Assembly (NCBI GenBank): GCA_963841905.1
Contig: CAWJEM010000024.1
Location: forward strand, 384,017 to 448,016
From: an uncultured Acidobacteriota bacterium
GTDB lineage: Bacteria; Acidobacteriota; Vicinamibacteria; Vicinamibacterales; UBA2999
DNA length: 64,000 bases
Direction of reading: 5' to 3'
A program made the position numbers and the translations under genes. The stretch's first letter is position 1. Each line of letters starts with the position of its first letter. Of this stretch, positions 876 to 30,732 are shown piece after piece. The notes under the pieces were generated by a model. That model did no database searches. It was given only the letters and a program-made list of their open reading frames with translations, and was not told the DNA's origin.

Positions 876-878
876 CTT

Positions 879-913
879 CCGGTAGCCGGTGGCCGGTAGC
901 CGGCAGCCGTGCT
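879..913. repeat. Five tandem 7-nt units (CCGGTAG-type)
   Basis: CCGGTAG CCGGTGG CCGGTAG CCGGCAG CCGTGCT fills the gap between convergent stops (873-875 plus strand, 916-918 minus strand). Confidence 0.8.
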
Positions 914-915
914 CG

Positions 916-1962: not shown

Positions 1963-1984
1963 AAGCCGGTCCTGCTCGCGTCCC

Positions 1985-2890: not shown

Positions 2891-2921
2891 GTTGGCTCCC
2901 TCCTGAAAAACTCACTCGTTT

Positions 2922-7129: not shown

Positions 7130-7746
7130 CTGAGGTACCTGACGCCTAACTTGGTGAGGGCCTCCTCTGGGCAGCCAGTCCAGCGTGCGACCGATCGATT
7201 GCCCATGTACTGCAGGTCGTCGATTCCCATTCGCGTCGTCCAGAAGCCCGCTGCGGTCAGATCACGGAAGCTACTGAAGAACGTCATGCCGTGTCGCAGA
7301 GGATGGGGTGTATCACCCGGCTTCACTACGGTGCGCGATGGCCAGGCAATATCGTCAAGCACCGCAGTCTGCTCGTTTGCCGCACAATCCACGAACGTCT
7401 TGTCGAACCGCTTCTGGCACTCGACATCCAGCCAGGCAAGCCCACCGCGCATCCCGACTTGCCGCGTCGGCTGATCGATCATCATGAAGTCCATGAACTC
7501 GGGCACACCGGCATCGGTGGCGCTGCCCGAGCGGTCGTCCGTGGGGATGATCAGATCGACGAGCACGCTCACCGATCGCCACTCGTGGGGCGTAAAGAAT
7601 TTCGGCTGAAAGGGGGTCCCGGCGGCGGCCGCCGCCTGCGCGACCTGCACCAGGTGGTGCGCATGGGCGGCTTCCGCCTCGGTCCAGGCGAATCCAGCGG
7701 CAAGCGGCGCGGACGCAAGCAATCGAAGCACGTCGCGACGTTCCAT
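6913..7746 (-). CDS. Gluconate 2-dehydrogenase subunit 3 family protein (Tat-exported small subunit of the GMC enzyme)
   Basis: ATG 7744-7746 shares a base with the upstream stop (TGATG). Tat leader MERRDVLRLLASAPLAAGFAW, then ...LIIPTDDRSGSATDAGVPEFMDF.... As written it runs 217 nt into the next gene. Removing one G at 7134-7135 gives ...LGVRYSDV* with a stop at 7122-7124 (208 aa). Confidence 0.8.
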   Translation of the reverse strand: MERRDVLRLLASAPLAAGFAWTEAEAAHAHHLVQVAQAAAAAGTPFQPKFFTPHEWRSVSVLVDLIIPTDDRSGSATDAGVPEFMDFMMIDQPTRQVGMRGGLAWLDVECQKRFDKTFVDCAANEQTAVLDDIAWPSRTVVKPGDTPHPLRHGMTFFSSFRDLTAAGFWTTRMGIDDLQYMGNRSVARWTGCPEEALTKLGVRYLRCLMAGRRARASPSFFPPSWFCFSRSLFSAGCPRTSACCHTFPTSSCSRVFSESEWAASSRPHAVACSPGFR

Positions 7747-9468
7747 CAGACACTCCCTACTTTTCGCTGATCGACGATGAACTCGCTGGTGCGCATGGCG
7801 AGCGCCAGAATCGTCCACGTTGGATTCTTGTCCGCCTGCGAGACGAACGGCCCGCCATCGGCAACGAACAGGTTTCTCACATCGTGCGCCTGGCAGTTTC
7901 GATTGAGTACCGAGCTTCGCGGATGGCTCCCCATGCGTGTCACGCCCAGCTCGTGGATGATTCGCCCACCGGGCTCGATGCCATAGCCATCTTCCGCGCT
8001 CGGCATGGGTGACAGCGGCGTCCCGCCCATCTCGTGGATGATGGCGCGGAACGTCTCCTGCATGTGCTTGACCTGTTTCAACTCGTAGTCCGACCACTTG
8101 AAGTGGAATCGCAGGACCGGAATGCCCCACTTGTCCACGACGGTCGGGTCGACCTCGCAATAGCTGTTCTCGTTCGGCACCATTTCCCCGCGACCGGAAA
8201 AGCCAACGGTCGCGCCATAGAAACGACGATAGTCGTCCTTGAGCTGCTTGCCGTAGCCGCCACCTGCAATGGGCCGTCCCGAGCTGTCCGTCCCGTTGTA
8301 TTGGTGAATGCCGCCAAGCGTGCCAAAGCCGGGCAATCGACGACCGCCGCCGATCTCGATGTGATAACCGCGCGGGAAGTCGAGCGTTCGATTGTCGAGC
8401 CACCAGGGCATGTAGAGATGGGCTCCGCTGGCCCCGTCCTCGTTGTGCGGAACGCTGTTCATCATCCGCGGGATGAAGCCGCGCACGCTCGTTCCGGTGG
8501 AATCGGTGATGTAACGGCCGACGCCGCCGCTGGAGTTGGCGAGCCCGTCCGGAAACTTCGACGACTTCGAGTTCAGGAGTAGTCGCGCCGTTTCGCAGGC
8601 GCTGGCGGCGAGCACGACAATCCGCGCGCGCACGTGATTCTCGCGACCCGTGGCCTTGTCGATGAAGGTCACACCGTTTGCGAGGCCGCTCTCATCCACC
8701 GTGACCTCTCGGGCCATCGCGTTCACGGTCAAGGTCAGACGTTTGGTTGCCAGCGCCGGTGGCAACAGCACCGACGGCGACGAAAAGTTCGCGTGCACGG
8801 AGCATCCGCGTCCGCACTGCCCGCAGTAGTGACAGGCCGGTCGGCCGTTGAGCGGCTGCGTCAGGATCGAGAGTCGCGACGCAACGCATGGGATCTTCAG
8901 CTTCTGTGAGGCTTCTTTGATCAGCAGCTCGTAGCAGCGCGGTCGTGGCGGCGGTTGAAAGAGGCCGTCGGGCTCGTTCGGCAGGCCCTCCTTCGACCCG
9001 AAGATGCCGACGAGCGTGTCGACGCGGTCGTAGTACCGGCTTCAAATCGTCGTACGTGATGGGCCAGTCGTCGCCGAGGCCATCAAGGCTACGGCGCCGA
9101 AAGTCGTCCGGGCCGAAGCGCAGGGAGATGCGGCCCCAGTGATTGGTGCGTCCGCCGAGCATGCGCGTGCGGAACCAATCGAAGCGGTCGCCCGCCGCCG
9201 TGGTGTAGGGCTCGCCGTCGAGCGTCCACCCGCCCAGGCCGGCGTCGAACTCGCCGAACTGCCGCTCAGGAATCGGCGCGCCACGTCTGGGCGAGTCGTA
9301 GGGCCACGCGAACATTCGCGAGTCGCGGCGCGTGTCCCACATGATGCCTGCCTCGAGCATCACGACGTCGGCGCCAGCCTCGGTGAGCACCTTGGCGGCC
9401 ATGCCACCGCCAGCGCCGGAACCGACGATGCAGACGTCGTAGATGTGGGAATTACGAATGATCTGCAT
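7746..9468 (-). pseudogene. GMC family oxidoreductase with the frame broken once (frameshift or base-call error)
   Basis: Pieces are 8692..9468 (YDVCIVGSGAGGGMAAKVL FAD fold) and 7746..8798. They join as ...DWPITYDDLKP|YYDRVDTLVGIFGSKEGLPNEPDG... if one G at about 9036 (AAG CCG G TAC TAC) is removed. Confidence 0.85.
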
Positions 9469-9538
9469 GCCTGCCCGCGAGCGATTCTACTTTAGCTCGC
9501 CCAGGTCGTTCGATCGACCCGAGGACAGGAAGTCGACT

Positions 9539-9766
9539 TCAAAGCACCGAAGTTTCTCGACGCGGATTGAATTCCAGGCGCATCGCGGGATGGCTGGTCG
9601 GATGCATGTAGCACCGAAAGACCGCGAAGAACCTGTGTTCTATAAGGCTTTGCTTTGCGTCAGTCTCCGTGTCGGTGCGCCAGTGTTCGAGGTTCAGATT
9701 GCCATCGGGACACTCGGGACACTTGCGGTTTCGGAGTCGCGGAACGGGCCAGGTGTTCTGCGCCAT
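9539..9766 (-). CDS. Hypothetical small Cys/His protein (weak call)
   Basis: 75-aa ORF in a 354-bp divergent intergenic region containing ...RKCPECPDG...FRCYMHPTSHP.... Third-position GC is lower than in neighbouring genes and I recognise no family. Confidence 0.25.
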   Translation of the reverse strand: MAQNTWPVPRLRNRKCPECPDGNLNLEHWRTDTETDAKQSLIEHRFFAVFRCYMHPTSHPAMRLEFNPRRETSVL

Positions 9767-9822
9767 GAGGCCGAGTGTAACTCACCTAACGTCCTTGCGG
9801 TTGGAGGCTGAGCTTCGCTAGC

Positions 9823-11343
9823 ATGCGCGGCAGAGGTGAGGCGATGGCGTCGAGACGCGATTTTGTGAAGACGATGGCGATCACGGGCGCGGGCTGGACG
9901 ATCGTTCCGCGACATGTTCTCGGCCGTGGCCAGACGCCGCCCAGCGACCGCCTGAATATCGCCGGCGTTGGCGTTGGCGGCATGGGCAAGATCAACCTCC
10001 TCAACCTCGCCACGCCCAACAACATCGTGGCGCTCTGCGATGTCGACTGGAACGTTGCCGGACGCGCCTGGGAGACGCTCGACGCCGACCTCAAGCGCGA
10101 GCAGGAGCGGCTGCCGAAGGTCACTGACGAGACGGCTCGCAAGAACAGTCTCGAGCGCATCGAGTCGCTGAAGAAGATCATCGCCCAGGATCTGCCGCGG
10201 ATGCAGCGACACACTGACTTCCGCGAAATGCTCGAGAGGCAAAAGGACATCGACGCCGTGGTCGTCGCAACGCCCGATCACACACATGCGGTCGTGGCCA
10301 TGGCGGCGCTGGAGGAAGGCAAGCATGTGTACGTTCAGAAACCACTGACGTGGTCCGTGGACGAAGCACGCCGCCTTGCCGCAAAGGCCAAGCAGACGAA
10401 GGTGGCCACCCAGATGGGCAACCAGGGTCATTCGTGGGACGACGGCCGGCGGGTCGTGGAATGGATCCAGGCCGGCGCCATCGGCGACGTGCGCGAGGTC
10501 CACGTGTGGACCAACCGTCCACTCGCCTACTGGCCGCAGGGCATCCCGCGCCCTCAGCCACAAAGAATCGCGACAGAGCTGCGATGGAACATGCCAGGGG
10601 TCATGGCGCGACTGGCAAACGCCATGGGCCTGTACTCGGTGCCCGAGAAGCTCCAGTGGGATCTCTTCATCGGGCCGGCGCCGCCGGTGGAGTATCACCC
10701 TGTGTATCACCCGTTCAATTGGCGCGGGTGGGCCGATTGGGGCGTCGGCGCCATCGGCGACATGGGGGCGCATCTCATCGATCATGCGTTCTGGGCGCTC
10801 GATCTCGGCTATCCAACGACCGTTGAAACCGTCTCGACGCCATTCGACAAGGCGTGCTTCCCCATGGCGACCACGACCTATTTCGAGTTTCCCGCACGAG
10901 GGTCGATGCCACCGGTCAAGCTCACGTGGTATGACGGCGGGCTGCTGCCGCCCAAGCCGGAGGAAATCGGTGAGGAGTCGCTCAACGCGACGGGTGGCGC
11001 ACTGCTCGTCGGATCAAAGGGGAAGTTGATTTACGACACGTACGGTTCCAACGCCCGACTGCTCCCGAAGTCGTTGCAGGACGCTGTTGGACCGCCGGTG
11101 CAGAAGCTGCCGCGCATCGCAACCAGTCATGAGTTGAACTGGTCGGACGCAGCGAAGGGGAAAGGCGAGGCGTCCACGCCCTTCGAGTACGCCGCGCGCC
11201 TGACCGAGGTCATGCTGTTGGGCATCGTCGCCCTGCGAGCCGGGACCAAGATCCATTACGACGGCGCGAAGATGAAGGTCACCAACAGTGCCAACGCCAA
11301 CGACTATTTGAGGCGGGAATATCGGCGCGGTTGGAATCTGTAG
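9823..11343 (+). CDS. Gfo/Idh/MocA family oxidoreductase with twin-arginine signal
   Basis: 506-aa ORF. The Tat leader [18 protein letters not shown] makes ATG 9844 the likelier start. Rossmann motif GVGVGGMGK. Confidence 0.85.
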
Positions 11344-11385
11344 AAAAACCTGCGGCGTCAAGTGGGGGCGACGGAGATCCACGCA

Positions 11386-11441
11386 GCCACGAAGGTCACG
11401 AAGCCCTCAAGAACAAGTCATGTTCTTCGTGTCTTCGTGGC
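11386..11441. repeat. Inverted tandem-repeat hairpin (CACGAAG units) between convergent genes
   Basis: GCCACGAAG GTCACGAAG ... AAGAACA-AGTCA-TGTTCTT ... CTTCGTGT CTTCGTGGC. It lies between stops at 11343 and 11464. Confidence 0.8.
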
Positions 11442-11463
11442 GTCGTCGTGAGTTCTTAATCGT

Positions 11464-12171
11464 CTAGAGCGGCCGGATCTTGATGTTTCGGTACCAGACC
11501 GGGTCGCCGTGATCCTGGAGCGCGATGTGGCCGCGCTTGCTGCGGCCATACATCGGGATCTTGCCGAACTTGCTCGCCTTCACGCGCGCTTCCCAGTCGG
11601 GACTCCACAGCTCGTAATCGACGATCTTCACGCCGTTCATCCAGTGCTCGACGTGAGAGCCCTTGACGAGCAGCCGCACGGTATTCCATTCCCCGACGGG
11701 CTTGGTGACATCGCGAACCGGTGGGTGCACGGCGTAATTCGATCCCGCCGACGTGATCGGGTCCTTGCCGTCCCGATGCACGGCGTTATCGAGGACCTGC
11801 ACCTCGGGTCCAGACCACCAGGCTGCGTCGCCCTCCTTGACGACGTGGAAGAAGATGCCGCTGTTGCCACCTTTGCCGAGCTTCCATTCGAGACTGAGCT
11901 CGAAGTCGCCGAATTCCTCGACAGTCAGGATGTCGCCACCCTCGGCTTCACGGGTGAGGACGCCGTCGATCGCTTTCCAACCGGTGCCCGGCGTCGGCGT
12001 CTTGAACCCCTGCCAGCCCGCCAGTGACTTGCCGTCGAAGAGCAGCTTCCAGCCCGCCTTGCGTTCCTCCGCTGTGAGACCGCCGGGAGTCTGCGCGTCC
12101 GTCATCACAAATGGCCAACCCACCAACAAGGCGACAAAGGCGACGGACAAGGCACGGAAGCACGGCAGCAC
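11464..12171 (-). CDS. DUF1080 (3-keto-disaccharide hydrolase, PF06439) domain protein
   Basis: ...GWKLLFDGKSLAGWQGF... and ...GHIALQDHGDPVWYRNIKIRPL* are family hallmarks. In the ORF track it is fused to the isomerase (11464..13011). Proposed own start is GTG 12169-12171, giving signal-like VLPCFRALSVAFVALLVGW. ATG 12115 is an alternative. Confidence 0.75.
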   Translation of the reverse strand: MLPCFRALSVAFVALLVGWPFVMTDAQTPGGLTAEERKAGWKLLFDGKSLAGWQGFKTPTPGTGWKAIDGVLTREAEGGDILTVEEFGDFELSLEWKLGKGGNSGIFFHVVKEGDAAWWSGPEVQVLDNAVHRDGKDPITSAGSNYAVHPPVRDVTKPVGEWNTVRLLVKGSHVEHWMNGVKIVDYELWSPDWEARVKASKFGKIPMYGRSKRGHIALQDHGDPVWYRNIKIRPL

Positions 12172-12232
12172 AGGAGCACGGAATAAACCATATAAAACCT
12201 TCCGTGTTTCCGTGGTTCCGTGTTTCCGTGCC
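12151..12232. repeat. Inverted tandem-repeat hairpin (CACGGAAG units)
   Basis: GGCACGGAAG CACGGCAG CACAGGAG CACGGAAT - loop AAACCATATAAAA - CCTTCCGTG TTTCCGTG GTTCCGTG TTTCCGTGCC. Confidence 0.85.
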
Positions 12233-12257
12233 TTTTCCTTGATCTCCTCCGCCAACG

Positions 12258-13129
12258 CTAGGAGTCGAGCTGCTTGCGGCAGGTACTCGAGGCATCGGGT
12301 TACCTCCTGAATGGTGTTGCCACCTTTGTACTGGTACTCGATGTTGGCGGGAATCGACCATTTCTCGTCACGAAGCAACCGGAGTATCGCACCAATGGGC
12401 GTATCGCCCTGACCGAACGGCACCGCCGGCCCCTGGTCGCGCTTTCGATCCTTGATGTGCAGCGTCAGAATCGACTCGTGATGCCGAAGCACGTAATCGA
12501 GCGCGTCGAAATTGGCAGCCGTGAAGTGACCGATGTCGAGGTTGACCTTGATCTGCGGCCCGACCTTCATCGCCTGCTCGAAATCCTGCGGCGTCGCAAA
12601 CTCGTTGGCATCAATCCGCGAGTGGTTGTGCATCCCGACCGGGAGCGCGTGACGAACGGCAACCGGCGCCACCCGCGCCACGGTCTTGATATTCGAGGAC
12701 GAGGTGATGCATGGCGCGCCGAGCGCCTTGGCCATCTCGAAGCCACGCCCGATTTCGGCGTCGGTAAAGTGCATCCCGAAAGCTGATGTTATAGGCGGAT
12801 AGAGCAATGCCCGCTTTGCTGAAGGCCTCGCCAATACGGCGGAACTCGTCGAGCGAGACGTTTTCGCGCCAGCGGCGAAGCTCTTCGCGCGAAACCCCTC
12901 GTGGCTCGACATGGGCCTGGTAGAGTTCGCAACTGTGCAGGCCGATTTTCGCGATCGCCGCGATCGCCGGCCCGATCTCCAGACCGCGAAAGCTGTAGCT
13001 CTGGACGCCAAGCGTCACACCCTTGTACTGCGCACTGGTTTCCTGAAATGCACGGACTGGCGTCCGCAATGCCGAAACGATGCCTCCGAGTGCAATCCAG
13101 TGCCATTCGCGTCGAGTCATCTGCGGCAT
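12258..13129 (-). pseudogene. Sugar phosphate isomerase/epimerase (xylose-isomerase-like TIM barrel) with the frame broken and the stop lost
   Basis: The N-terminal ORF 12611..13129 (MPQMTRREW..., GVQSYSFRGL) continues in ORF 11464..13011 (GMHFTDAEIGRGFEMAKALGAP, NLDIGHF). There is a +1 at about 12779 (AGC TTT C GGG). A second +1 at about 12283 would restore ...EYCRKQLDS* with TAG at 12258-12260. Confidence 0.75.
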
Positions 13130-13136
13130 GTGGACC

Positions 13137-14372
13137 CTACTCTACCGCAGCGCGAGCAACCGCCGGCTGGTATGTTTCGAGCCCGTCAGGACGCCACGGC
13201 AACACACGTTCCTGTTCCGCGCTCATATAGCACGCCATCAAGAGCTCGACCACTTCCAGCCCGGCGCGGAAATCCAATTCCGGTTGAACACCGTCGCGGA
13301 AGGATTGGATGAATGCACGATTCTCGTTCTCGTAGCCGTACTCGGCCGATTCATTGCCGACGATCGGCATCAGCCCCTGCTCGGCGTTCTGCTTTTCGAT
13401 CAGATCCTCGTCCACCTTGCCCTGCAGCCGCCTGGAGAAAAATACCTTGGTCGTGGTGTCGAGCGTGCTGATCGCGAGCGAATATTCAGGACCGAGCAAT
13501 TCCATCGAGAGTCGAAGGCCGGCGCCCACGTAGCTCCAGGATGTCGTGGCCTCGACTACCAGCGGCGTGCCCGCCTCGTCGACGTAACTGACGGACGCCC
13601 GCGCAAAATCCTCGGCGGGATGGCGGCCGTAGTCGATTGACGCGCCCATCATGTCCTTGAGCAGTGCGACATATTCGGGCCGCGACCACTTGAGCGTGGC
13701 AATCTGCGCCGATACCTTGACCGGCCTGATGCTGTGACGTGGGGCACTCGGCTGCGTCAACAGGTGCCGACCAACCTCGAGGCTGTGGCACATCATGTCG
13801 TTCAACACGCCGCCGCCCTGAAGGTCGCCGCGCCAGAACCAGGGCATGTGAGGACCGCCATGCTCCTCGGCCGCGCGCGCCAGGTACGGGCGCCCCGCCA
13901 GCGCGGCGCCGCGCGCCCACACAATCTCCTTTCCCCGTTCAACCCCAGGAGCAAACAACTGATTTTCGAGATACCCGTGCAGGACACCGGCACGTTCGGC
14001 CAACTCCAGCATCTTGCGAGCTTCGGTGACGTTACGTGCCAGCGGCTTCTCGCACGCGACACCAACGAGCTTGGCGCCGCGGGTCCGCGCGTGCACGATT
14101 TCCTCCATGTTGCCGACGCGCGCGTAGTTGGGACCGCAGAGCCAGATGCAGTCGATCGAAGGGTCCGCAACCATCTCGGCGATCGACGAATAGGCTTTCG
14201 CCTCTCCGACGTGCAGCGACCGGGCCAGCGCCGCCGCCTCTTCTGCGCGCGCGCGGCTCGGACTCCACACGCCGCGAACATCCGCGCCACGAACCGCCTG
14301 CCACGATCGAATGTGAAAGCGAGTGATGAAGCCACTGCCAATGAAGCCGACGCCGAGAGTCTTGTGAGGCAT
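13137..14372 (-). CDS. Gfo/Idh/MocA family oxidoreductase (cytoplasmic)
   Basis: 411 aa with the N-terminal Rossmann motif LGVGFIGSGFITRFH and no signal peptide. Confidence 0.85.
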   Translation of the reverse strand: MPHKTLGVGFIGSGFITRFHIRSWQAVRGADVRGVWSPSRARAEEAAALARSLHVGEAKAYSSIAEMVADPSIDCIWLCGPNYARVGNMEEIVHARTRGAKLVGVACEKPLARNVTEARKMLELAERAGVLHGYLENQLFAPGVERGKEIVWARGAALAGRPYLARAAEEHGGPHMPWFWRGDLQGGGVLNDMMCHSLEVGRHLLTQPSAPRHSIRPVKVSAQIATLKWSRPEYVALLKDMMGASIDYGRHPAEDFARASVSYVDEAGTPLVVEATTSWSYVGAGLRLSMELLGPEYSLAISTLDTTTKVFFSRRLQGKVDEDLIEKQNAEQGLMPIVGNESAEYGYENENRAFIQSFRDGVQPELDFRAGLEVVELLMACYMSAEQERVLPWRPDGLETYQPAVARAAVE

Positions 14373-14398
14373 GAGCGACTATAATCCCACCGCCGATT

Positions 14399-15598
14399 AT
14401 GACGTCGCCAATGGCTCGCCTCTCGATGATGATGTTCCTCGAATACGTCATCTGGGGATCGTGGCTGCCACTGCTGGCGCTGTATCTCGGTGACGTCCTC
14501 GGCTTCTCCGGCTCTCAGATCGGCTGGATCTTCGCCACCCCCGCCATCGCATGCGTCGTCGCCCTCTTCGTCGGCGGGCAACTCGCCGATCGGGTGATGT
14601 CCACGGAAAAGCTGCTGGCGGTACTGCACGTCGTCGGCGGAATCGCGATGCTGGCGCTGGCGTTCCAGACGACGTTCTGGGCCTTTCTCGTGATCATGCT
14701 CGCGTATCAACTGGCCTACATCCCGACGATGTCGTTGACCAATGCGATCGCGTTTCACCATGTGCAGGACGCGCGGAAGGATTTTGGCCGCATTCGTCTC
14801 TGGGGCACGATCGGGTGGATTGCCGCCAGCTGGCCGTTCGTCTTCATCCTGGCCGGCAAGACCGGTGAGGCGCTGGAAGCCGCGCTCTCGAGCATCTTCG
14901 TTGTCGCGGGACTGGCCTCGTTTGCACTGGCGGCGTTCTCGTTGACGCTGCCGGCGACACCACCGGGACGTGACGCGCAGGCCGCGAATGCGCCGCTCGA
15001 GGCGATCCGATTTCTGGCCGTGCCGGCCATTCTGGTGCTCTTCGTCGTGACGTTCATGGACGCGCTGGTCCACCAGGCCTACTTTCAGTTGACCAGTCCC
15101 TTTCTCGAGCGGGCCGGACTGCCGGCGAACTGGATCATGCCCGCGATGAGCATCGGGCAGATCGCCGAGATTGCGACCATGGCGGTCCTGGGCGCGGTCC
15201 TGAGCCGTTACGGCTGGCGGACGACGATGGCCGTCGGCATTGCGGCGCATGCACTCCGCTTTTTCGTGTACGCGATCGGCGATCCCCTGTGGCTGATGGT
15301 CGCCATCAACGTCGTCCACGGAATGTGCTACGCGTTTTTCTTCGCGGCGGTCTACATCTTCGTTGACGAGTATTTCCCCAAAGATTCCCGCGCCAGCGCG
15401 CAAGGGTTGTTCAACCTTCTCATCCTCGGCCTTGGGCCGTTCTTCGGCAGCCTGCTCTGGGGGCGGCTGGCCGACAGCCTGCGCACGGGATCCGGCGACG
15501 TGGACTACCAGACGCTGTTTCAGGCGCCGGCGTGGCTCGCGGTGGCGGCGATGGTGCTGTTGCTGGTGGCGTTCAGGCCTTCGGCGCGCGTGGCTTAG
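14399..15598 (+). CDS. MFS transporter, nucleoside:H+ symporter-like family
   Basis: 399 aa and about 12 TM segments. The N-terminus MARLSMMMFLEYVIWGSWLPLLALYLG...FSGSQIGWIF matches the Nuc_H_symport pattern. TATAAT at 14379-14384 sits 14 nt upstream of the ATG. Confidence 0.8.
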   Translation: MTSPMARLSMMMFLEYVIWGSWLPLLALYLGDVLGFSGSQIGWIFATPAIACVVALFVGGQLADRVMSTEKLLAVLHVVGGIAMLALAFQTTFWAFLVIMLAYQLAYIPTMSLTNAIAFHHVQDARKDFGRIRLWGTIGWIAASWPFVFILAGKTGEALEAALSSIFVVAGLASFALAAFSLTLPATPPGRDAQAANAPLEAIRFLAVPAILVLFVVTFMDALVHQAYFQLTSPFLERAGLPANWIMPAMSIGQIAEIATMAVLGAVLSRYGWRTTMAVGIAAHALRFFVYAIGDPLWLMVAINVVHGMCYAFFFAAVYIFVDEYFPKDSRASAQGLFNLLILGLGPFFGSLLWGRLADSLRTGSGDVDYQTLFQAPAWLAVAAMVLLLVAFRPSARVA

Positions 15599-15615
15599 CA
15601 ACGTGCGCGCGCAGT

Positions 15616-15693
15616 GGTCCACGGTCCACGGTAGCCACGAAGGACGAAGCAATTCCGTTGTGGGGATCTTCGTGCCTTCGTGCCTTCGTGGCC
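15616..15693. repeat. Inverted tandem-repeat hairpin (GGTCCAC / CACGAAG units)
   Basis: GGTCCAC GGTCCAC GGTAGCCACGAAG GACGAAG - loop - CTTCGTGC CTTCGTGC CTTCGTGGCC. It fills the gap between stops at 15598 and 15695. Confidence 0.85.
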
Positions 15694-15694
15694 T

Positions 15695-16996
15695 CTACTT
15701 CCCTCCGAACAAATAGTCCAAGGCGAGATTCGCCATCACCCGCACGCCGACGGGCAACGCGGATTCGTCGGCAAAGAACAGCGGCGAATGATTGGCGGGC
15801 GCTGACTTGATGTCCCGATCTCGCGGAGTTACGCCCAGGAAGAAGAACATTCCCGGCACTTTCTGCTGATAGAACGCGAAGTCCTCCGCTATGCCGGTCA
15901 GCGGCCCAACGCGCACGTTTTCAGCACCCGCGACGCGACGTAAGGTGGGCGCCATCCTCTCCGTCAGATCGGGATTGTTGATGGTGACCGGGTAGCCGAT
16001 GCCATAGCTGATTTCAACGCTGCCGCCCATCGCCTCCGCAGTCTTCGTCGCAATCTCGCGGATTCGACGATGAATGTCCTTGCGGACGTCTTCGTTGAAG
16101 GCGCGGACCGTGCCTTGCAGCTCGGCGGTCTCGGGCACGATGTTGAACCGATTGCCCGCGTTGAAGGCCCCGATCGTCACAACCGCGGGCGCTTCGGTGA
16201 TGTTCACGCTGCGACTGACGATGGTCTGCAACGACATCACGATCTGCGAGCCAATGACAACCGGATCGACACCAGCCCAGGGCACAGCGCCGTGGGTCTG
16301 TCGTCCTTTGATGCGAATCGTAAACGAGTCGGCGCTGGCCATGAACGGACCTGGTCGGTACTCGATGGTCCCGGCGTGCAGCGGAAAGACATGCAGACCG
16401 AAGACGGCATCAACCTTCGGATTGTCGAGCACGCCCTCCTTCACCATCAACTCTGCGCCACCCTGCTCACCCGCCGGCGGGCCTTCTTCGGCTGGCTGGA
16501 AGATCAGCTTGATCGTTCCGGGAAGCTGCTCTCTCATGCGCGCAAACATCGTCGCGGCGCCGAGAAGAATCGCCATGTGGTTGTCGTGTCCGCAGGCGTG
16601 CATGACACCTACTTCCTGGCCATTCCAGGTCGTCCTGACCGTGGACTTGAACGGCAGTTCCACTTGCTCGGTGACCGGCAACGCATCCAGGTCCGACCGC
16701 AGGGCGACTACCGGGCCCGGCTTGCCGCCGCGCAGCACGGCTACGACACCGGTATGAGCCACCCCGGTTTGCACCTCGTAGCCAAGCCGCTTCAATTCCT
16801 CCGCGATGATCTTCGCCGTCCGCTGCTCTCGATTCCCCAACTCGGGATGCTGATGAAAATCCCGACGCCACGTAACTACCTGCGGCATCAACTCATGCGT
16901 CAAACGGTCGATCTGCGAGGAAAGCGGATTCGCCGACTGCGCGGCGGAAAAAACCGGGATCAAACACAGGGTGAAGGCAAGAGCAGCGGCGCGCAT
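15695..16996 (-). CDS. M20 family amidohydrolase (aminoacylase/hippurate hydrolase-like)
   Basis: The real start is ATG 16996 (signal MRAAALAFTLCLIPVFSAAQS). The 95 codons upstream in ORF 15695..17281 are read-through of the 13-mer array. Motifs: HQHPELGNRE and MHACGHDNH. Confidence 0.85.
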   Translation of the reverse strand: MRAAALAFTLCLIPVFSAAQSANPLSSQIDRLTHELMPQVVTWRRDFHQHPELGNREQRTAKIIAEELKRLGYEVQTGVAHTGVVAVLRGGKPGPVVALRSDLDALPVTEQVELPFKSTVRTTWNGQEVGVMHACGHDNHMAILLGAATMFARMREQLPGTIKLIFQPAEEGPPAGEQGGAELMVKEGVLDNPKVDAVFGLHVFPLHAGTIEYRPGPFMASADSFTIRIKGRQTHGAVPWAGVDPVVIGSQIVMSLQTIVSRSVNITEAPAVVTIGAFNAGNRFNIVPETAELQGTVRAFNEDVRKDIHRRIREIATKTAEAMGGSVEISYGIGYPVTINNPDLTERMAPTLRRVAGAENVRVGPLTGIAEDFAFYQQKVPGMFFFLGVTPRDRDIKSAPANHSPLFFADESALPVGVRVMANLALDYLFGGK

Positions 16997-17020
16997 GGCG
17001 GACAATTGGTACTCAACGGG

Positions 17021-17260
17021 GGTTCTCGACGACGGTTCTCCACAGGGGTTCTTCACGAGGGTTCTCGACGAAGGTTCTCCACGACGGTTCTCGACCGGGC
17101 TGTCGCACCTTTCGTCAAGAACCGTCGTCGAACCATCGTCAAGAACCATCGTCAAGAACCATCGTCGAGAACCGTCGGGAAGAATCGTCGGGGAGAACCA
17201 TCGCTGAACAATCGTCAAGAACCTAAGTAAAGAACCCTCGTGCAGAACCGTAATGAACAC
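17021..17260. repeat. Array of 13-nt units: 6 forward (GGTTCTCGACGAN), then about 12 reverse-complement (NTCGTCAAGAACC)
   Basis: Forward units occupy 17021-17098, a spacer 17099-17110, and reverse units 17111-17260 (decaying toward the end). It lies between divergent starts at 16996 and 17368. Confidence 0.9.
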
Positions 17261-17367
17261 CCAACGCCCGAATCCGGACACCTGCGGCCGTACTCCACAA
17301 CGGAACGACGCGATGAGCGCGTATTTTCCGAGTGTGCTCTGGCACGACCCTCGCTAAGTCACTGGCC

Positions 17368-19818
17368 ATGCTCAGCGATCTCCGCCTCGGCCTCCGCCAC
17401 TTCCTTCGTCGTCCTGGCATCGCCCTGGCGGCCGTTCTGTCGCTGGCGCTCGGGATTGGGGCGAACAGCGCCATCTTCAGCGTGCTGCACAGCGTCGTCC
17501 TCAACCCGCTGCCTTATCGAAGTCCAGAACGGCTGGTCATCCTGTGGGAGACCTCGTCGGATAACCCTGAGCGATGGGTGGCGCCCGCGAACTTCGTGGA
17601 CTGGCGGCGAGAGTCGCGGTCATTCGAATCGCTCGCGGCATTCGACGAGTTCTCGCCGACGCTCGCCGGTCGCGCGGAGCCCGAGCGGCTCCGAGCCGTC
17701 GGAGCGTCGGGGACGTTCTTCACGACGCTTGGGGTGACGGCATCGCTCGGCCGCACGCTGCTTCCATCGGACGATGAACCCGATGCGAGTGGCGCGGCGG
17801 TCCTGAGCCACGGACTCTGGACTCGCCTGTTCGGCGCCGCACCGGATGCGATTGGGCAGACGCTGCGACTCGACGGCCGCAGCTACACGATCGTCGGCGT
17901 CATGGGCACACGTTTCGAGTCCCCCCTGGCCGCGGGCGTCGATGTGTGGCTGAGCGGCGATCGGGGAATCCCGCGCACGTTTCCCTTCGGCGGAGACCTC
18001 ACCAATGTGCGCGATTCGCACATCATCTACGTCGTTGGCCGCCTGGCGCCGGCCGCCAGCCGCGAGGTTGCGCAGCAAGAGCTGAGCGCGATGATGGAGG
18101 CGCTGGCACGGCGCTACCCCGACACCAACGCCGGTCTTGGCGTCAACGTCCAGCCGTTGCACCAGGCCGTCGTCGGCGACCTCAGCGGAGTCCTGGGACT
18201 CATGCAGTTGGCGGTGGCGATGATGCTGCTCATCGCCTGTGCCAACGTCGCGCACCTGCTGCTCGGTCAAGCCGCGGGCCGGCAAGGCGAGATGATGGCG
18301 CGAGTCGCACTGGGCGCAGCGCGCGGGCGCCTCGTGCGTCAACTGCTGGCCGAAACAATGGTCATTGCCATTCCTGGCGGCGTGCTGGGGCTCTTGCTCG
18401 CCGCCTGGGGACTCGATGCGCTCGTCGCACTTGCCCCTCGCGGCCTTCCGCGCCTGGAAGAGATCGGCCTCCACCCAATCGTGCTGCTCTTCACCACCGG
18501 TGTGACTTTCCTGACCGCGGCCGTGTTCGGGCTGGGGCCGGCCTTTCAGTTGGCCCGGCAAAGCGCGCTCACGCCGAGCCACGCGTCATTCCGACTGACC
18601 GGCGGCCGGCATGTCAGGCGTTGGCATCACGCGATTGTCGTCACCGAGCTTGCGATGGCTCAGGTTCTACTCATCGGCGCCGGGCTACTGCTCGCGAGCT
18701 TTGTCGCCAGTCAGCGCGTGCCTCTCGGGTTCGAGACCGACGGGCGCGTCGCCGCAGATCTCAACCTCGCCCCCGACAAGTACCTGCGTCCCGTGTCGGC
18801 GGAAGCGTTCACCATCGATCCCGCTCTCAAGATCGGCTTCGTCCAGAGGGTCCTCGAGCAGTTGGAGTCGGCAAAGGGCATGCGAGCCGCGGCGGCCTCT
18901 TTTACATCCCCGCTCAGCGGGGCACCCAATCGTGGGATCCGCATCGAGGGGCGCCCGTCAGCAGCCGGACGCAACGAGGATGCGGCTGACTTTCAAGTCA
19001 TCACGCCGGATTTCTTCCGGTCCGTCGGTGCAACCCTGATTCGGGGCCGCACGATTGCCGACACCGACCGTGCGAACACGCCAGCAGTGGTGGTCGTCAA
19101 TCGGGCGTTTGCCGATCGTTTCTTCCCTGGCGTCGATCCCATCGGCCAGCGAATCCTGTTTGGCGAGCGTGCGGCTCACGAGGTGGTCGGCGTCGTCGAC
19201 AACATGCGCTACAGGTTCGTCGAATCACCGGCCGACCCGACCTTCTACATTCCGATCACACAGAACGCCGAACGTTGGCCGTTCCTCTCGTTTACGGTGT
19301 GGAGCGACGAAGAGGCGACGGTGACGGCAGACCGCTTGCGCAGTGCGATCCGCACGGCCGACCCTGGACAGGCGATTACGAGAATGCGGAGCTTCGACGA
19401 GATTCTGAGCACAGCGCTCGCCACGCGGCGCTTCAACACGCTGCTCGTGCTCGTGTTTGCTGGAGCGGCGCTGGTCCTGGCTGCCGTGGGCACCTACGGC
19501 GTGATGGCTTACGCCGTTTCGACGCGGACCCGTGAGCTCGGCGTGCGTGCCGCACTCGGTGCGAGCCCTCGGAGCCTGCTCCATCTGGTGGTTGGGCAAG
19601 GCGCAATGCTCACGGCAGTCGCGGTCGCGCTCGGCATCGGCGCCGGGCTCTTTCTCACGCAGCTGATGGCTGCGATGCTCTATGAGGTCACGCCCCGCGA
19701 TCCGCGGACGTTCGTCGGTGTCGCCGTGCTCCTCAGCCTCGTGGCGCTCGTGGCGACGTGGGTGCCGGCGCGGCGTGCCGTCAAGGTGAGTCCGATTCGG
19801 GCGTTGCGCGAGGAATAG
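17368..19818 (+). CDS. ADOP-type ABC transporter permease (MacB-like periplasmic core plus duplicated FtsX modules)
   Basis: N-terminus MLSDLRLGLRHFLRRPGIALAAVLSLALGIGANSAIFS and tail ...VKVSPIRALREE*. There are two 4-TM FtsX blocks and no adjacent ATPase gene. Confidence 0.85.
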   Translation: MLSDLRLGLRHFLRRPGIALAAVLSLALGIGANSAIFSVLHSVVLNPLPYRSPERLVILWETSSDNPERWVAPANFVDWRRESRSFESLAAFDEFSPTLAGRAEPERLRAVGASGTFFTTLGVTASLGRTLLPSDDEPDASGAAVLSHGLWTRLFGAAPDAIGQTLRLDGRSYTIVGVMGTRFESPLAAGVDVWLSGDRGIPRTFPFGGDLTNVRDSHIIYVVGRLAPAASREVAQQELSAMMEALARRYPDTNAGLGVNVQPLHQAVVGDLSGVLGLMQLAVAMMLLIACANVAHLLLGQAAGRQGEMMARVALGAARGRLVRQLLAETMVIAIPGGVLGLLLAAWGLDALVALAPRGLPRLEEIGLHPIVLLFTTGVTFLTAAVFGLGPAFQLARQSALTPSHASFRLTGGRHVRRWHHAIVVTELAMAQVLLIGAGLLLASFVASQRVPLGFETDGRVAADLNLAPDKYLRPVSAEAFTIDPALKIGFVQRVLEQLESAKGMRAAAASFTSPLSGAPNRGIRIEGRPSAAGRNEDAADFQVITPDFFRSVGATLIRGRTIADTDRANTPAVVVVNRAFADRFFPGVDPIGQRILFGERAAHEVVGVVDNMRYRFVESPADPTFYIPITQNAERWPFLSFTVWSDEEATVTADRLRSAIRTADPGQAITRMRSFDEILSTALATRRFNTLLVLVFAGAALVLAAVGTYGVMAYAVSTRTRELGVRAALGASPRSLLHLVVGQGAMLTAVAVALGIGAGLFLTQLMAAMLYEVTPRDPRTFVGVAVLLSLVALVATWVPARRAVKVSPIRALREE

Positions 19819-19825
19819 TACGCCG

Positions 19826-19852
19826 ATCTTCCGGCTGAAGCCGGAAGCCACG
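19826..19852. repeat. REP-like palindromic element, copy 2 (inverted relative to copy 1)
   Basis: GATCTTCCGGC-TGAA-GCCGGAAGCCAC, immediately after the permease stop. Confidence 0.7.
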
Positions 19853-19875
19853 CTAGTCAGGTAACATCTCCTCGC

Positions 19876-20850
19876 GTGAAGGCGATCCTCGTTCATCAGT
19901 TTGGCGGGCCTGAAGTACTGAAGCTCTCGGATGTTCCGGAACCACACCCCGAAGCGAATCAGGTCCTGGTGCAGGTTCATGCGGCCGGGGTGAATCCGTA
20001 TGACACCTACATGCGGACCGGCAACTACGCCATTCAACCGCCGCTGCCCTATTCGCCCGGCGCGGATGCTGCGGGCATCGTGGAACGCGTTGGATCTGGC
20101 GCGCACGGTGTGTCGAGCGGCGCGCGAGTCTACGTCACCGGCACGGTGGCCCACAAGAGTTACGGGGCCTATGCCGCGAAAGTGCTCTGCGAGCCACACC
20201 AGCTTCATCCGCTGCCGGATCGTCTGAGCTTCGCGCAAGGCGCCGGCGTCGGCGTGCCTTATGTGACTGCATTTCGCGCCCTGCACGATCGCGCGCGCAT
20301 TGGAGCCGGGGAAACACTCTTCATTCACGGCGCCAGCGGAGGCGTTGGCATCGCTGCCATTCAAATCGCGCGAGCATCAGGCCTGACCGTCATTGGCACT
20401 GCGAGCACGCAGGCAGGCCTCGACCTGGTGCAAAGGCAAGGCGCCCACCACGTCCTCAATCACCGCGAGGCGGGGTATCTCGACAAGCTGAAGGAGCTGA
20501 CCAACGGCCGAGGCCCCGACGTGATTCTCGAGAACCTGGCCAACGTCAACCTGGACAACGATCTCAGCGCCATGGCCTACGGCGGCCGGGTCGTCATCGT
20601 CGGGAACCGCGGGCGGATCGAGATCGATCCGCGCAAAGTGATGTCGAAGGATGGCGCCATTGTCGGCATGGCGCTGTGGAACACAACGCCTGAGGATTTT
20701 GCTCGAATCTATCGCGCGATCGACGCTGGACTCGAGAGCGGCGCACTGGCACCGGTGGTCGGCACCGAACTCCCGTTCGGCGAGGCCAAACGCGCCCACG
20801 AACTGGTGCTCGAACCGGGGGCGAAAGGGAAAATCGTCCTCGTCCCGTAA
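19876..20850 (+). CDS. NADPH:quinone reductase / zeta-crystallin-like MDR oxidoreductase
   Basis: 324 aa from a GTG start. MKAILVHQFGGPEVLKL...VNPYDTYMRTG...GASGGVGIAAIQIA. Confidence 0.85.
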   Translation: MKAILVHQFGGPEVLKLSDVPEPHPEANQVLVQVHAAGVNPYDTYMRTGNYAIQPPLPYSPGADAAGIVERVGSGAHGVSSGARVYVTGTVAHKSYGAYAAKVLCEPHQLHPLPDRLSFAQGAGVGVPYVTAFRALHDRARIGAGETLFIHGASGGVGIAAIQIARASGLTVIGTASTQAGLDLVQRQGAHHVLNHREAGYLDKLKELTNGRGPDVILENLANVNLDNDLSAMAYGGRVVIVGNRGRIEIDPRKVMSKDGAIVGMALWNTTPEDFARIYRAIDAGLESGALAPVVGTELPFGEAKRAHELVLEPGAKGKIVLVP

Positions 20851-30629: not shown

Positions 30630-30630
30630 A

Positions 30631-30732
30631 GGGCGTAGGGCATAGGGCGTAGGGCATAGACGGGCTCAGGGCCCTCAGTCCCTTTACCTCCTATGCCCTA
30701 TGCCCTATGCCCTGTGCCCTACGCCCTATGCG
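30631..30732. repeat. Inverted tandem-repeat hairpin (TAGGGCR 7-nt units)
   Basis: GGGCGTA GGGCATA GGGCGTA GGGCATA ... AGGGCCCT centre ... CCTATGC CCTATGC CCTATGC CCTGTGC CCTACGC CCTATGC. It fills the gap between stops at 30629 and 30735 exactly. Confidence 0.9.

What the first reader, a model, noticed from the sequence alone, without database searches (positions are those of the whole stretch)
17021..17260. 240-bp array of 13-nt units (6 forward, about 12 inverted) in a divergent promoter region
GGTTCTCGACGAN occurs 6 times in exact 13-nt register (17021-17098). After a 12-nt spacer, its reverse complement NTCGTCAAGAACC occurs about 12 times, with increasing decay (17111-17260). The array lies between the M20 amidohydrolase start (16996, minus strand) and the ADOP permease start (17368, plus strand). 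Any promoters and operators for both genes must therefore lie in or next to it. The 13-nt period is not a codon multiple and differs from the 7-8 nt period elsewhere. It could be a cruciform or hairpin element, or a reiterated binding site. ORFs reading through it (GSRRRFSTGVL...) are artefacts.
Basis: seen in the sequence. Interest (0 to 1): 0.6.

Follow-up and report, generated by a model that had tools for sequence, protein, structure and literature searches.

The report
Hypervariable 13-base convergent repeat array
The 240-base block between the peptidase and permease genes is real, but it is not a control element specific to this gene pair. It is one of at least 53 copies of a young, fast-changing repeat family (two facing runs of a 13-base unit) that fills gaps between genes in a few closely related soil Acidobacteria, and the likely promoters lie beside it, not inside it.

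Summary
Observation confirmed. Positions 17008-17098 hold 7 units of GGTTCT-NN-ACG-NN. A 12-nt spacer follows, then 11 inverted units at 17111-17249. All 10 exact core matches in the 64-kb window lie here (0.44 expected by chance).

- **Not locus-specific.** The genome (Vicinamibacterales) has about 270 loci built as unit array, spacer, inverted unit array, in about 11 unit families. The 13-mer family has 147 runs and at least 53 convergent pairs, and none with the opposite polarity.
- **Placement.** Arrays start a median of 4 nt after stop codons. They fill about 82% of their gaps and are rarest between divergent genes.
- **Young and restricted.** The 13-mer family exists only in a sub-clade of one genus and is absent from 400 other Acidobacteriota genomes.
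- **This locus.** Four close genomes carry the array, with different unit numbers. Two congeners have a 172-177-nt gap with no array but keep the flanking blocks: a TACAAT box beside the M20 ATG and a σ54-like TGGCACG-N4-CTCGCTA before the permease ATG.
- **No selected hairpin.** The arms do not co-vary, their sizes are uncorrelated, and sense and antisense RNA fold equally well.
- **Other tests.** No array-flanked RAYT gene and no reverse transcriptase were found.

Best reading: a slippage-driven dispersed repeat like the Xanthomonas GGGAATC pairs, with a sequence-constrained core. Function is untested.

The parts
15695..16996 (-). M20/M25/M40 amidohydrolase gene (secreted; the N-terminus MRAAALAFTLCLIPVFSAAQS looks like a signal peptide).
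   Evidence: Pfam PF01546 and PF07687. NCBIfam TIGR01891. Orthologues align from residue 1.
17005..17011 (-). -10-like box. It reads TACCAAT here, TACAAT in G005, G006, G008, G001 and G004, and TAGAAT in G007 and G002. It lies 6-8 nt upstream of the M20 ATG, which suggests a leaderless M20 mRNA. It is outside the array proper.
   Evidence: Alignment of the left flank in 9 genomes. That it acts as a promoter is an inference.
17008..17098 (+). Left arm: 7 tandem units of GGTTCT-NN-ACG-NN (the first is degenerate). The units read toward the centre.
17099..17110 (.). 12-nt non-repeat spacer, the loop of the potential hairpin.
17111..17249 (-). Right arm: 11 units of the same 13-mer on the minus strand (NNCGTNNAGAACC on the plus strand). 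Two units are shortened. The units read toward the centre.
17255..17282 (+). Conserved upstream block GAACACC-N14-GGACACC, also kept in the array-free relatives G001 and G004. It is a candidate regulator or activator site for the permease promoter.
   Evidence: Alignment of 6 genomes. The function is an inference.
17340..17356 (+). σ54-like promoter TGGCACGACCCTCGCTA (-24 GG at 17341-2, -12 GC at 17353-4), 12 nt before the ADOP ATG.
   Evidence: Conserved in 6 genomes. In G004 an in-frame TAG lies within this stretch (read by eye from the sequence), so it is non-coding there. rpoN is present in the genome. The motif is not general to ADOP genes, occurring near only 3 of 81.
17368..19818 (+). 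ADOP-family duplicated permease gene (MacB_PCD + FtsX, twice).
   Evidence: TIGR03434, 817 bits against a cut-off of 622. Pfam.

Best explanation
The block is one copy of a lineage-restricted, dispersed repeat family. Each copy is two independent tandem arrays of a 13-nt unit (core GGTTCT..ACG) that face each other.

Shown:
- The family belongs to a genome-wide class of about 270 such convergent arrays, in about 11 unit families.
- These arrays occupy whatever intergenic space is free. They abut stop codons, leave room at start codons, and are rarest between divergent genes.
- Each arm gains and loses units locally. Adjacent units are the most alike, and copy numbers differ between genomes that are about 95% identical.
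- The two arms of a locus evolve independently of each other.
- The array here is an addition in the ancestor of G000, G005, G006 and G008. It sits between two pre-existing promoter regions.

Inferred:
- Slipped-strand mispairing is the engine of unit gain and loss.
- The strong contrast between 9 near-invariant and 4 free positions, together with the strict polarity, means some sequence-specific agent constrains the unit. This could be a protein that binds it or a process that seeds it. The hairpin as such is not what is constrained.
- At this locus the array acts at most as a spacer between the M20 and permease promoters. It replaces the -35/upstream region of the M20 promoter. It is not their operator.
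For: - Genome-wide architecture and families.
- 13-mer family: 147 runs, 53 convergent pairs, 0 of the opposite polarity. Unit logo: unanchored positions 6, 9, 10 and 11 are 89-98% conserved, while 7, 8, 12 and 13 are variable.
- Placement: a median of 4 nt from facing stop codons against 27 nt from starts, and 82% of the gap filled. Arrays occupy 22% of convergent, 10.8% of tandem and 6.9% of divergent gaps (chi-square p = 1.5e-11).
- Local duplication: adjacent units share 0.428 identity at the variable positions, against 0.324 when units are shuffled among arms (p < 0.001).
- Independent arms: cross-arm identity is 0.316, against 0.320 for arms re-paired between loci (p = 0.68). Arm sizes correlate at r = 0.04.
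- Restricted taxon range: the triple-unit pattern gives 177 hits in G000, 79 in G005, 58 in G006, 11 in G008, 2 in G002, 0 in seven congeners and 0 in 400 other Acidobacteriota.
- Same locus: array present in G000, G005, G006 and G008 with left-arm units of 7, 6, 4 and 7. It is absent from G001 and G004, which keep the flanking blocks.
- Syntenic arrays change copy number at 95% identity and sometimes change unit at 80% identity.
- Gain or loss at single sites.
- The published analogue has the same placement rules (PMC4692102).
Against: - There are no transcript or read data.
- How the same unit reaches dozens of unrelated gaps is unexplained. There are no conserved flanks, spacers or target duplications, no array-flanked Y1 transposase and no reverse transcriptase.
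- Arrays persist at the same gaps down to about 80% nucleotide identity. This could mean selection for having an array there, not mere tolerance.
- Gene calls come from my own crude caller, so the start-codon distances are approximate.
Confidence: 0.6

Rival explanations
1. The arrays are reiterated binding sites for a clade-specific, sequence-specific protein that coats them. One model is the ω repressor of pSM19035, a ribbon-helix-helix protein that polymerises on 7-bp heptads and prefers direct or converging orientations. Another is a single-strand binder with one protein per unit. The arrays would then be a genome-wide set of protein-loaded sites (insulators or nucleoid organisers). The one here would sterically separate or dampen the two promoters.
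For: - The unit has a bipartite conserved core (GGTTCT, ACG) with free positions between, like a recognition site.
- Polarity is strict: 53 convergent pairs against 0.
- Arms do not co-vary, so the sequence is kept and the pairing is not.
- The preference of ω for converging heptads comes from my own knowledge and was not tested here.
Against: - No candidate protein was identified.
- About 21% of units are 11, 12 or 14 nt long, which would break a regular protein lattice.
- The unit can be replaced by an unrelated one at the same gap in G008.
- Placement right after stop codons in hundreds of gaps fits free-space filling at least as well.
Confidence: 0.2
2. The arrays are RNA-level elements. 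Transcribed as 3' UTRs, the two arms form a long hairpin that works from either side as a bidirectional terminator or as a 3'-end protector against exonucleases, as REP elements do in E. coli. The copy at this divergent locus would be a by-product with no such job.
For: - Arrays begin a median of 4 nt after stop codons, so they must be transcribed at about 290 gene ends.
- They are most frequent between convergent genes.
- Fold stability is strong.
- Canonical hairpin-plus-T-run terminators are at chance level in window 1-20000: 17 found against 14.0 +/- 3.9 in shuffles.
- In Xanthomonas, transcripts start or stop in such repeats more often than in controls (PMC4692102).
Against: - There is no compensatory co-variation between arms, and arm sizes are uncorrelated.
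- Sense and antisense strands fold equally well at 138 co-directional loci: mean difference -0.5 kcal/mol, sense better in 75 of 138, p = 0.37.
- There is no T-run.
- Arrays also sit inside short co-directional gaps and in 38 divergent gaps, where a terminator is useless or harmful.
- Arrays are dispensable between 95%-identical genomes.
Confidence: 0.15
3. This is the first reader's reading: the array is the operator or enhancer region of the divergent M20/ADOP pair. For example, it could be the upstream activating sequence for the σ54-like permease promoter, or a cruciform switch.
For: - It lies 11 nt from the M20 ATG and 90 nt upstream of a σ54-like promoter. σ54 promoters need upstream activator sites (established knowledge).
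- ADOP-like genes are mildly enriched next to 13-mer loci: 7 observed against 1.9 expected, p = 0.003.
Against: - Orthologous gaps in G001 and G004 keep the σ54-like box, the GAACACC..GGACACC block and the TACAAT box, but have no array.
- The seven ADOP-adjacent arrays face 5' ends 4 times and 3' ends 3 times, and only this ADOP has the σ54 motif.
- None of the 7 σ54-like sites upstream of genes has an array within 300 nt.
- Only 7 of 53 loci in the family lie between divergent genes.
Confidence: 0.04

Closest known systems
Convergent pairs of GGGAATC heptamer arrays in Xanthomonas campestris and X. axonopodis (Rehm et al. 2015, PLoS One, PMC4692102)
   Same: - Tandem arrays of a short unit, paired with an array of the reverse complement in convergent orientation (70-75 pairs per genome).
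- About 90% intergenic.
- Very close to or overlapping stop codons.
- 16% between convergent ORFs but only 7-8% between divergent ORFs.
- Not linked to mobile elements.
- Restricted to one genus.
- Function unknown.
   Different: - The unit here is 13 nt with a bipartite core and no G-tract, so the G-quadruplex rationale does not apply.
- About 11 unit families coexist in one genome, where Xanthomonas has a single family.
- Arrays here fill most of the gap.
STRR heptamer repeats of heterocystous cyanobacteria (Mazel et al. 1990; cited in PMC4692102) and TAACTGA repeats of Beggiatoaceae and cyanobacteria (PMC4679880)
   Same: - Dispersed intergenic tandem arrays of a fixed short unit.
- Several families per genome (STRR1-3).
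- Patchy phylogenetic distribution.
- No known mechanism of spread.
   Different: - Those are mostly single direct arrays. The Beggiatoa genome has 169 direct sets and 1 indirect set.
- TAACTGA sits just upstream of start codons.
- Paired inverted arrays are few in Nostoc.
- Here the convergent pair is the rule and the arrays hug stop codons.
REP / BIME / REPIN elements with their RAYT transposases (PMC3733652)
   Same: - Extragenic, high-copy, hairpin-forming and mostly downstream of genes.
- Several families per genome, lineage-specific and fast-evolving.
   Different: - REPs are single 20-40-nt palindromes with a GTAG or CGTC head, and they are linked to a RAYT gene flanked by its own REPs.
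- Here the arms are variable-length tandem arrays.
- The two Y1-transposase-like genes of the genome have no arrays next to them.
Heptad operator arrays of the ω repressor (pSM19035) and iteron or parC-type reiterated protein sites
   Same: - Contiguous short units in direct and converging orientation.
- A sequence-conserved core.
- Unit period not tied to the helical repeat (from my own knowledge).
   Different: - Those are a few sites at defined promoters or centromeres on plasmids, next to the gene of the binding protein.
- Here there are hundreds of chromosomal gaps in all orientations, and the arrays are absent from orthologous promoters in congeners.

Membership tests
Dispersed convergent short-tandem-repeat arrays (Xanthomonas GGGAATC type) | Head-to-tail iteration of one short unit. 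| tested here: met
   There are 7 + 11 units of 13 nt. The unit is longer than the 5-11 nt usually described.
Dispersed convergent short-tandem-repeat arrays (Xanthomonas GGGAATC type) | A second array of the same unit lies on the other strand, in convergent orientation and close by. | tested here: met
   The spacer is 12 nt here. Genome-wide there are 53 convergent pairs and 0 divergent-polarity pairs.
Dispersed convergent short-tandem-repeat arrays (Xanthomonas GGGAATC type) | The same unit occurs at many unrelated intergenic loci, near stop codons, and is rare between divergent genes. | tested here: met
Dispersed convergent short-tandem-repeat arrays (Xanthomonas GGGAATC type) | G-rich unit able to form a G-quadruplex. 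| tested here: not met
   The unit GGTTCTTCACGAA has no G-tract of 3 or more. This feature defines the G4 subclass only.
REP / REPIN-RAYT | A RAYT (Y1 transposase) gene flanked by elements of its own family. | tested here: not met
   There are two PF01797 hits (C24:224439, C4:162063), and neither has a convergent array within 2.5 kb.
REP / REPIN-RAYT | A single imperfect palindrome of 20-40 nt with a conserved GTAG or CGTC head. | tested here: inconclusive
   CGTC occurs in many right-arm units (TCGTCAAGAACC), but it includes variable position 8. The arms are tandem arrays, not a single palindrome.
MITE | Conserved internal sequence, terminal inverted repeats and a target-site duplication. | tested here: not met
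   Spacers and flanks are unrelated between loci. No duplication is seen at the filled and empty site pair.
Operator, iteron or enhancer (UAS) of the flanking genes | Conserved together with the promoters it serves across orthologous loci. | tested here: not met
   G001 and G004 keep the promoter-like blocks but lack the array. Other Vicinamibacterales have gaps of 53-220 nt with no 13-mer array.
Operator, iteron or enhancer (UAS) of the flanking genes | A cognate binding protein exists. | not testable with these tools
   No candidate was found, and this needs a pull-down or EMSA.
Intrinsic terminator | A G+C-rich hairpin followed by a T-run. | tested here: not met
   There are no terminator-like sites in 16900-17450, and both flanking genes point away from the array.
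CRISPR array | Identical repeats separated by unique spacers of similar length. | tested here: not met
   Units are contiguous, with no spacers between them.
Known RNA families (Rfam 15) | A match at the family's gathering score. | tested here: not met
   Only sub-threshold matches to miRNA-precursor hairpins: 36 bits against a gathering score of 95.

The most novel reading that the evidence does not exclude
The unit cores may be read, or written, by clade-specific sequence-specific proteins, one per family. The convergent arrays would then form a self-renewing, genome-wide punctuation system at gene boundaries in Vicinamibacterales and some other phyla. On this reading the 13-mer is a composite unit (GGTTCY from the octamer family plus CACGRR from the CACGGAA/CACGAAG families) that needs two readers. 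That would explain its bipartite core, and also the hybrid GGTTCC-CACGGG units seen in G002.
Probability: 0.12. Interest if true: 0.75.

Novelty: new variant of a known kind. Interest (0 to 1): 0.4.

Why it matters
- **Annotation.** This block and hundreds like it should not be read as operators, promoters or ORFs. The ORFs through it are artefacts, and the M20 start is at 16996.
- **Biology.** The 13-mer family adds three points to the little-studied class of convergent short-repeat arrays.
  - The class is not limited to 5-11-nt or G-rich units.
  - The two arms evolve independently and show no selection for pairing. This weakens the usual hairpin explanation and points to recognition of the unit sequence itself.
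  - A family can appear and reach at least 50 loci within a sub-clade of one genus.
- **Use.** Such arrays are a ready source of fast length variation for strain typing. They also offer a tractable case for asking how identical short repeats spread to unrelated sites without a recognisable transposase.

Tried and rejected
2. **Telomerase-like or reverse-transcriptase writer healing breaks.** This idea was attractive because the arms are independent and the polarity is strict. However, there is no RVT_1 gene in a 97%-complete genome, and there is no inner-versus-outer age gradient: edge units score 6.0 against 5.8 of 9 core matches (p = 0.18). The walk procedure that defines the edges biases both ends equally.
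3. **RAYT/REPIN.** Two Y1-transposase-like genes exist, but neither is flanked by arrays.
4. **σ54 enhancer.** None of the 7 σ54-like sites upstream of genes has an array within 300 nt. The strict motif is barely above its reversed control, 30 against 20.
5. **ADOP regulon.** The enrichment is mild (7 against 1.9 expected) and the geometry is inconsistent.
6. **Fold-back inverted duplication of one arm.** Rejected because cross-arm similarity equals between-locus similarity.
7. **RNA strand-asymmetry test.** Null result.
8. **Insertion signature at a filled and empty site pair (window 12152-12230).** No target duplication was found, and the direction of the change cannot be determined.
9. **Rfam.** Nothing above threshold.
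10. **Literature.** No paper on such repeats in Vicinamibacteria turned up in the searchable library.

Full report
**1. Observation**

Reading 16800-17500 shows the following:
- Six GGTTCT-NN-ACG-NN units lie in exact 13-nt register at 17021-17098, preceded by a degenerate seventh at 17008-17020.
- A 12-nt spacer follows at 17099-17110.
- Eleven reverse-complement units lie at 17111-17249, and two of them are shortened.

TRF reports both arrays (period 13; 5.5 and 10.9 copies). The repeat finder reports inverted arms of 78 nt at 76% complementarity. The core GGTTCTNNACG occurs 10 times in the window, all of them here, against 0.44 expected.

The flanking genes are an M20 amidohydrolase (15695-16996, minus strand) and an ADOP-family permease (17368-19818, plus strand). 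Orthologue alignments beginning at residue 1 support both start codons. The stretch folds far better than shuffles, as RNA (-118.1 kcal/mol, z = -7.1) and as DNA (z = -6.3).

**2. It is not a local feature**

TRF on the whole 5.58-Mb genome (24 contigs; the window is C24:384017-448016) found 292 pairs of the form unit array, gap under 200 nt, reverse-complement array. These merge into 270 loci in about 11 unit families:
- AAGTTAC, AAGGTTCC, AGGGCAT, GGTCCAC, CAGTGAT
- GGTGCGACA, GGTGCCTAG, GATTGGGT
- CACGGAAA/CACGAAGG, CACAGAGA
- the 13-mer

An anchor-based search for the 13-mer found 147 runs of at least 3 units. They form 53 convergent pairs and none of the opposite polarity.

Only the unit is shared between loci. 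Spacers and flanks are unrelated.

The unit profile from 553 units is G-G-T-T-C-T-[T/C]-[C/G]-A-C-G-[A/G]-N. The unanchored positions 6, 9, 10 and 11 are 89-98% conserved, while positions 7, 8, 12 and 13 are free. About 21% of the spacings are 11, 12 or 14 nt.

**3. Where the arrays sit**

I used my own codon-usage gene caller (4612 genes, 85% coding). It is crude, especially for start codons.
- The 270 loci overlap genes by only 8.6% on average.
- They occupy 22% of convergent gaps longer than 100 nt, 10.8% of co-directional gaps and 6.9% of divergent gaps (chi-square p = 1.5e-11).
- They begin a median of 4 nt (quartiles 0, 4, 10) after a facing stop codon, but 27 nt from a facing start.
- They fill a median of 82% of the gap.
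- The 13-mer family alone lies in 33 co-directional, 12 convergent and 7 divergent gaps, and 1 locus is genic.

This distribution is the opposite of what a promoter or operator element would show.

**4. Organism and taxonomic range**

Record titles of M20 orthologues place the genome in Vicinamibacterales, Acidobacteriota.

A three-unit 13-mer pattern gives these counts:

| Genome(s) | Hits |
|---|---|
| G000 | 177 (reversed-pattern control 0) |
| G005 | 79 |
| G006 (60% complete) | 58 |
| G008 | 11 |
| G002 | 2 |
| Seven other congeners | 0 |
| 400 other Acidobacteriota, including two congeners | 0 |

The AAGTTAC and GGTTCCNN families have nearly the same patchy distribution within the genus. 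Convergent pairs with unrelated units occur in other Vicinamibacterales, in Gemmatimonadota MAGs and in one Bacteroidota MAG among the 80 loci fetched. So the architecture is widespread, but each unit family is young and lineage-specific.

**5. The same locus in relatives**

The divergent M20/ADOP arrangement is conserved. The gap between the two genes varies:

| Genome | M20 amino-acid identity | Gap (nt) | 13-mer array |
|---|---|---|---|
| G000 | - | 371 | yes |
| G005 | 96% | 352 | yes |
| G006 | - | 304 | yes |
| G008 | 87% | 342 | yes |
| G001 | 83% | 177 | no |
| G004 | 83% | 172 | no |

- Left-arm unit counts in the four array-bearing genomes are 7, 6, 4 and 7. Right-arm units also differ in number and variant.
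- Other Vicinamibacterales have gaps of 53-220 nt, holding nothing or an unrelated heptamer.

Three things are conserved outside the array, including in the array-free G001 and G004:
- (a) A TACAAT-like box 6-8 nt before the M20 ATG (17005-11 here). This suggests a leaderless mRNA.
- (b) The block GAACACC-N14-GGACACC (17255-82).
- (c) TGGCACG-N4-CT(C/G)GCTA (17340-56), 12 nt before the permease ATG. This is a σ54-type -24/-12 pattern. In G004 the stretch contains an in-frame stop (read by eye from the sequence), so it is non-coding there. The genome encodes σ54.

The promoter-like signals therefore flank the array. Only the -35 region of the M20 promoter would fall inside its first units. No σ70 consensus pair is found in the gap.

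**6. How the arrays evolve**

In the 64-kb syntenic region, arrays are retained at the same gaps in G005 and G006 (about 95% nucleotide identity) with changed copy numbers. In G008 (about 80% identity) they are often retained too, and sometimes an unrelated unit occupies the same gap.

Three observations show how loci are inherited and how they come and go:
- An 8-mer array at 12152-12230 is present in G000 and G005 but absent from G006 and G008, with no target duplication.
- 13-mer loci on this contig have counterparts at the predicted G005 positions in 5 of 6 cases. Most loci therefore predate the G000/G005 split.
- G002's single 13-mer locus lies in a gap that in G000 holds only an ordinary small stem-loop.

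Identity at the four variable positions shows how units relate to each other:

| Comparison | Identity |
|---|---|
| Adjacent units, same arm | 0.428 |
| Units shuffled among arms (control for adjacent units) | 0.324 (p < 0.001) |
| Non-adjacent units, same arm | 0.384 |
| Units on the two arms of one locus | 0.316 |
| Arms re-paired between loci (control for the two arms) | 0.320 (p = 0.68) |

- Arm sizes are uncorrelated (r = 0.04).
- Both edges of an arm are equally decayed, so there is no growth polarity.

Each arm therefore behaves as an independent tandem array that turns over by local duplication and deletion. The arms are not copies of each other and are not kept complementary.

**7. 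Tests of function and mechanism**

- **RNA-level selection.** At 138 co-directional loci the sense strand folds no better than the antisense (mean -0.5 kcal/mol; sense better in 75 of 138; p = 0.37).
- **Canonical terminators.** These are at chance level in window 1-20000 (17 found against 14.0 +/- 3.9). This leaves room for hairpins to act as transcript-end signals, but it is weak evidence.
- **REPIN/RAYT.** Two Y1-transposase-like genes exist, and neither is flanked by arrays.
- **Reverse-transcriptase writer.** There is no RVT_1 gene.
- **σ54 enhancer.** No association was found.
- **ADOP association.** The enrichment is mild (7 against 1.9 expected, p = 0.003). The arrays face 5' ends 4 times and 3' ends 3 times.
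- **Rfam.** Only sub-threshold generic hairpin matches.

**8. Interpretation**

Shown:
- This is a dispersed, lineage-restricted, hypervariable repeat that occupies free intergenic space.
- At this locus it is an addition between older promoter regions.

Inferred:
- Slipped-strand mispairing drives unit turnover.
- The 9-of-13 conserved core and the fixed polarity reflect sequence-specific recognition or seeding, not selection for base pairing.

Unknown:
- It is not known how the unit reaches new gaps.

I put about 0.6 on [quoted passage not shown]. I put about 0.2 on genome-wide protein-binding arrays, about 0.15 on RNA 3'-end hairpins, and about 0.04 on a locus-specific operator or enhancer.

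**9. Comparison with known systems**

The closest published case is the set of convergent GGGAATC arrays of Xanthomonas (PMC4692102). They share the paired convergent layout, the closeness to stop codons, the under-representation between divergent ORFs, the restriction to one genus and the unknown function.

The differences are:
- The unit here is 13 nt, bipartite and not G-rich.
- About 11 families coexist in one genome.
- This analysis demonstrates that the arms are independent.

STRR and TAACTGA repeats are mostly single direct arrays (PMC4679880). REP/RAYT membership fails the RAYT-association test. I found no description of such repeats in Vicinamibacteria in the searchable library.

Earlier notes of this scan describe the same phenomenon in other windows. 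I treated them as leads. My results agree with them and add these tests:
- arm independence
- strand symmetry
- RAYT and reverse-transcriptase searches
- phyletic range
- local promoter architecture

**Verdict:** a new variant of a known kind, of moderate interest.

Noticed in passing
window 17340-17356: σ54-type -24/-12 box TGGCACGACCCTCGCTA lies 12 nt before the ADOP ATG. It is conserved in six genomes of the genus, and rpoN is present (C6:74733-75206). It would give an almost leaderless permease mRNA. Only 3 of 81 ADOP paralogues have such a motif.
   Followed up: partly
window 17005-17011 (minus strand): A TACAAT-like box lies 6-8 nt upstream of the M20 ATG in nine genomes, which suggests that the M20 mRNA is leaderless.
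   Followed up: partly
L122 about 2080-2330 (G002:C138:62583-62827) and G000 C11:116040-116264: This is the single 13-mer convergent locus in a genome that otherwise lacks the family, and it starts 7 nt after a stop codon. The orthologous G000 gap has only a small ordinary stem-loop. Its units alternate GGTTCTTCACGAN with 12-mers GGTTCCCACGGG. This hints that the 13-mer is a composite of the GGTTCC octamer core and the CACGRR core.
   Followed up: partly
window 12152-12230: A convergent 8-mer array (GCACGGAA / TTCCGTGT) lies between two co-directional minus-strand genes. It is present in G000 and G005 and absent from G006 and G008, with no target duplication. My gene caller wrongly fused the two genes across it.
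   Followed up: partly
window 30630-30731: The same convergent gap carries AGGGCAT/CCTATGC arrays in G000 and G006, a variant in G005, and an unrelated unit (GTCAGTT/AACTGGT) in G008. The position is kept while the unit is replaced.
   Followed up: no
window 1-20000: Canonical hairpin-plus-T-run terminators are at chance level (17 found against 14.0 +/- 3.9 in shuffles). σ70 consensus promoter pairs number 0, against 2.9 expected.
   Followed up: no
genome G000, whole: There are 81 ADOP-like permease paralogues (blastp E < 1e-20 over more than 400 aa) in a 5.6-Mb genome.
   Followed up: no
genus-level pattern searches: G002 carries the GGTTCCNN octamer family abundantly (71 hits) although its M20 is more distant (79% identity) than those of G001 and G004 (83%), which have none. 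The family distribution may not follow the species tree, through either loss or lateral spread.
   Followed up: no
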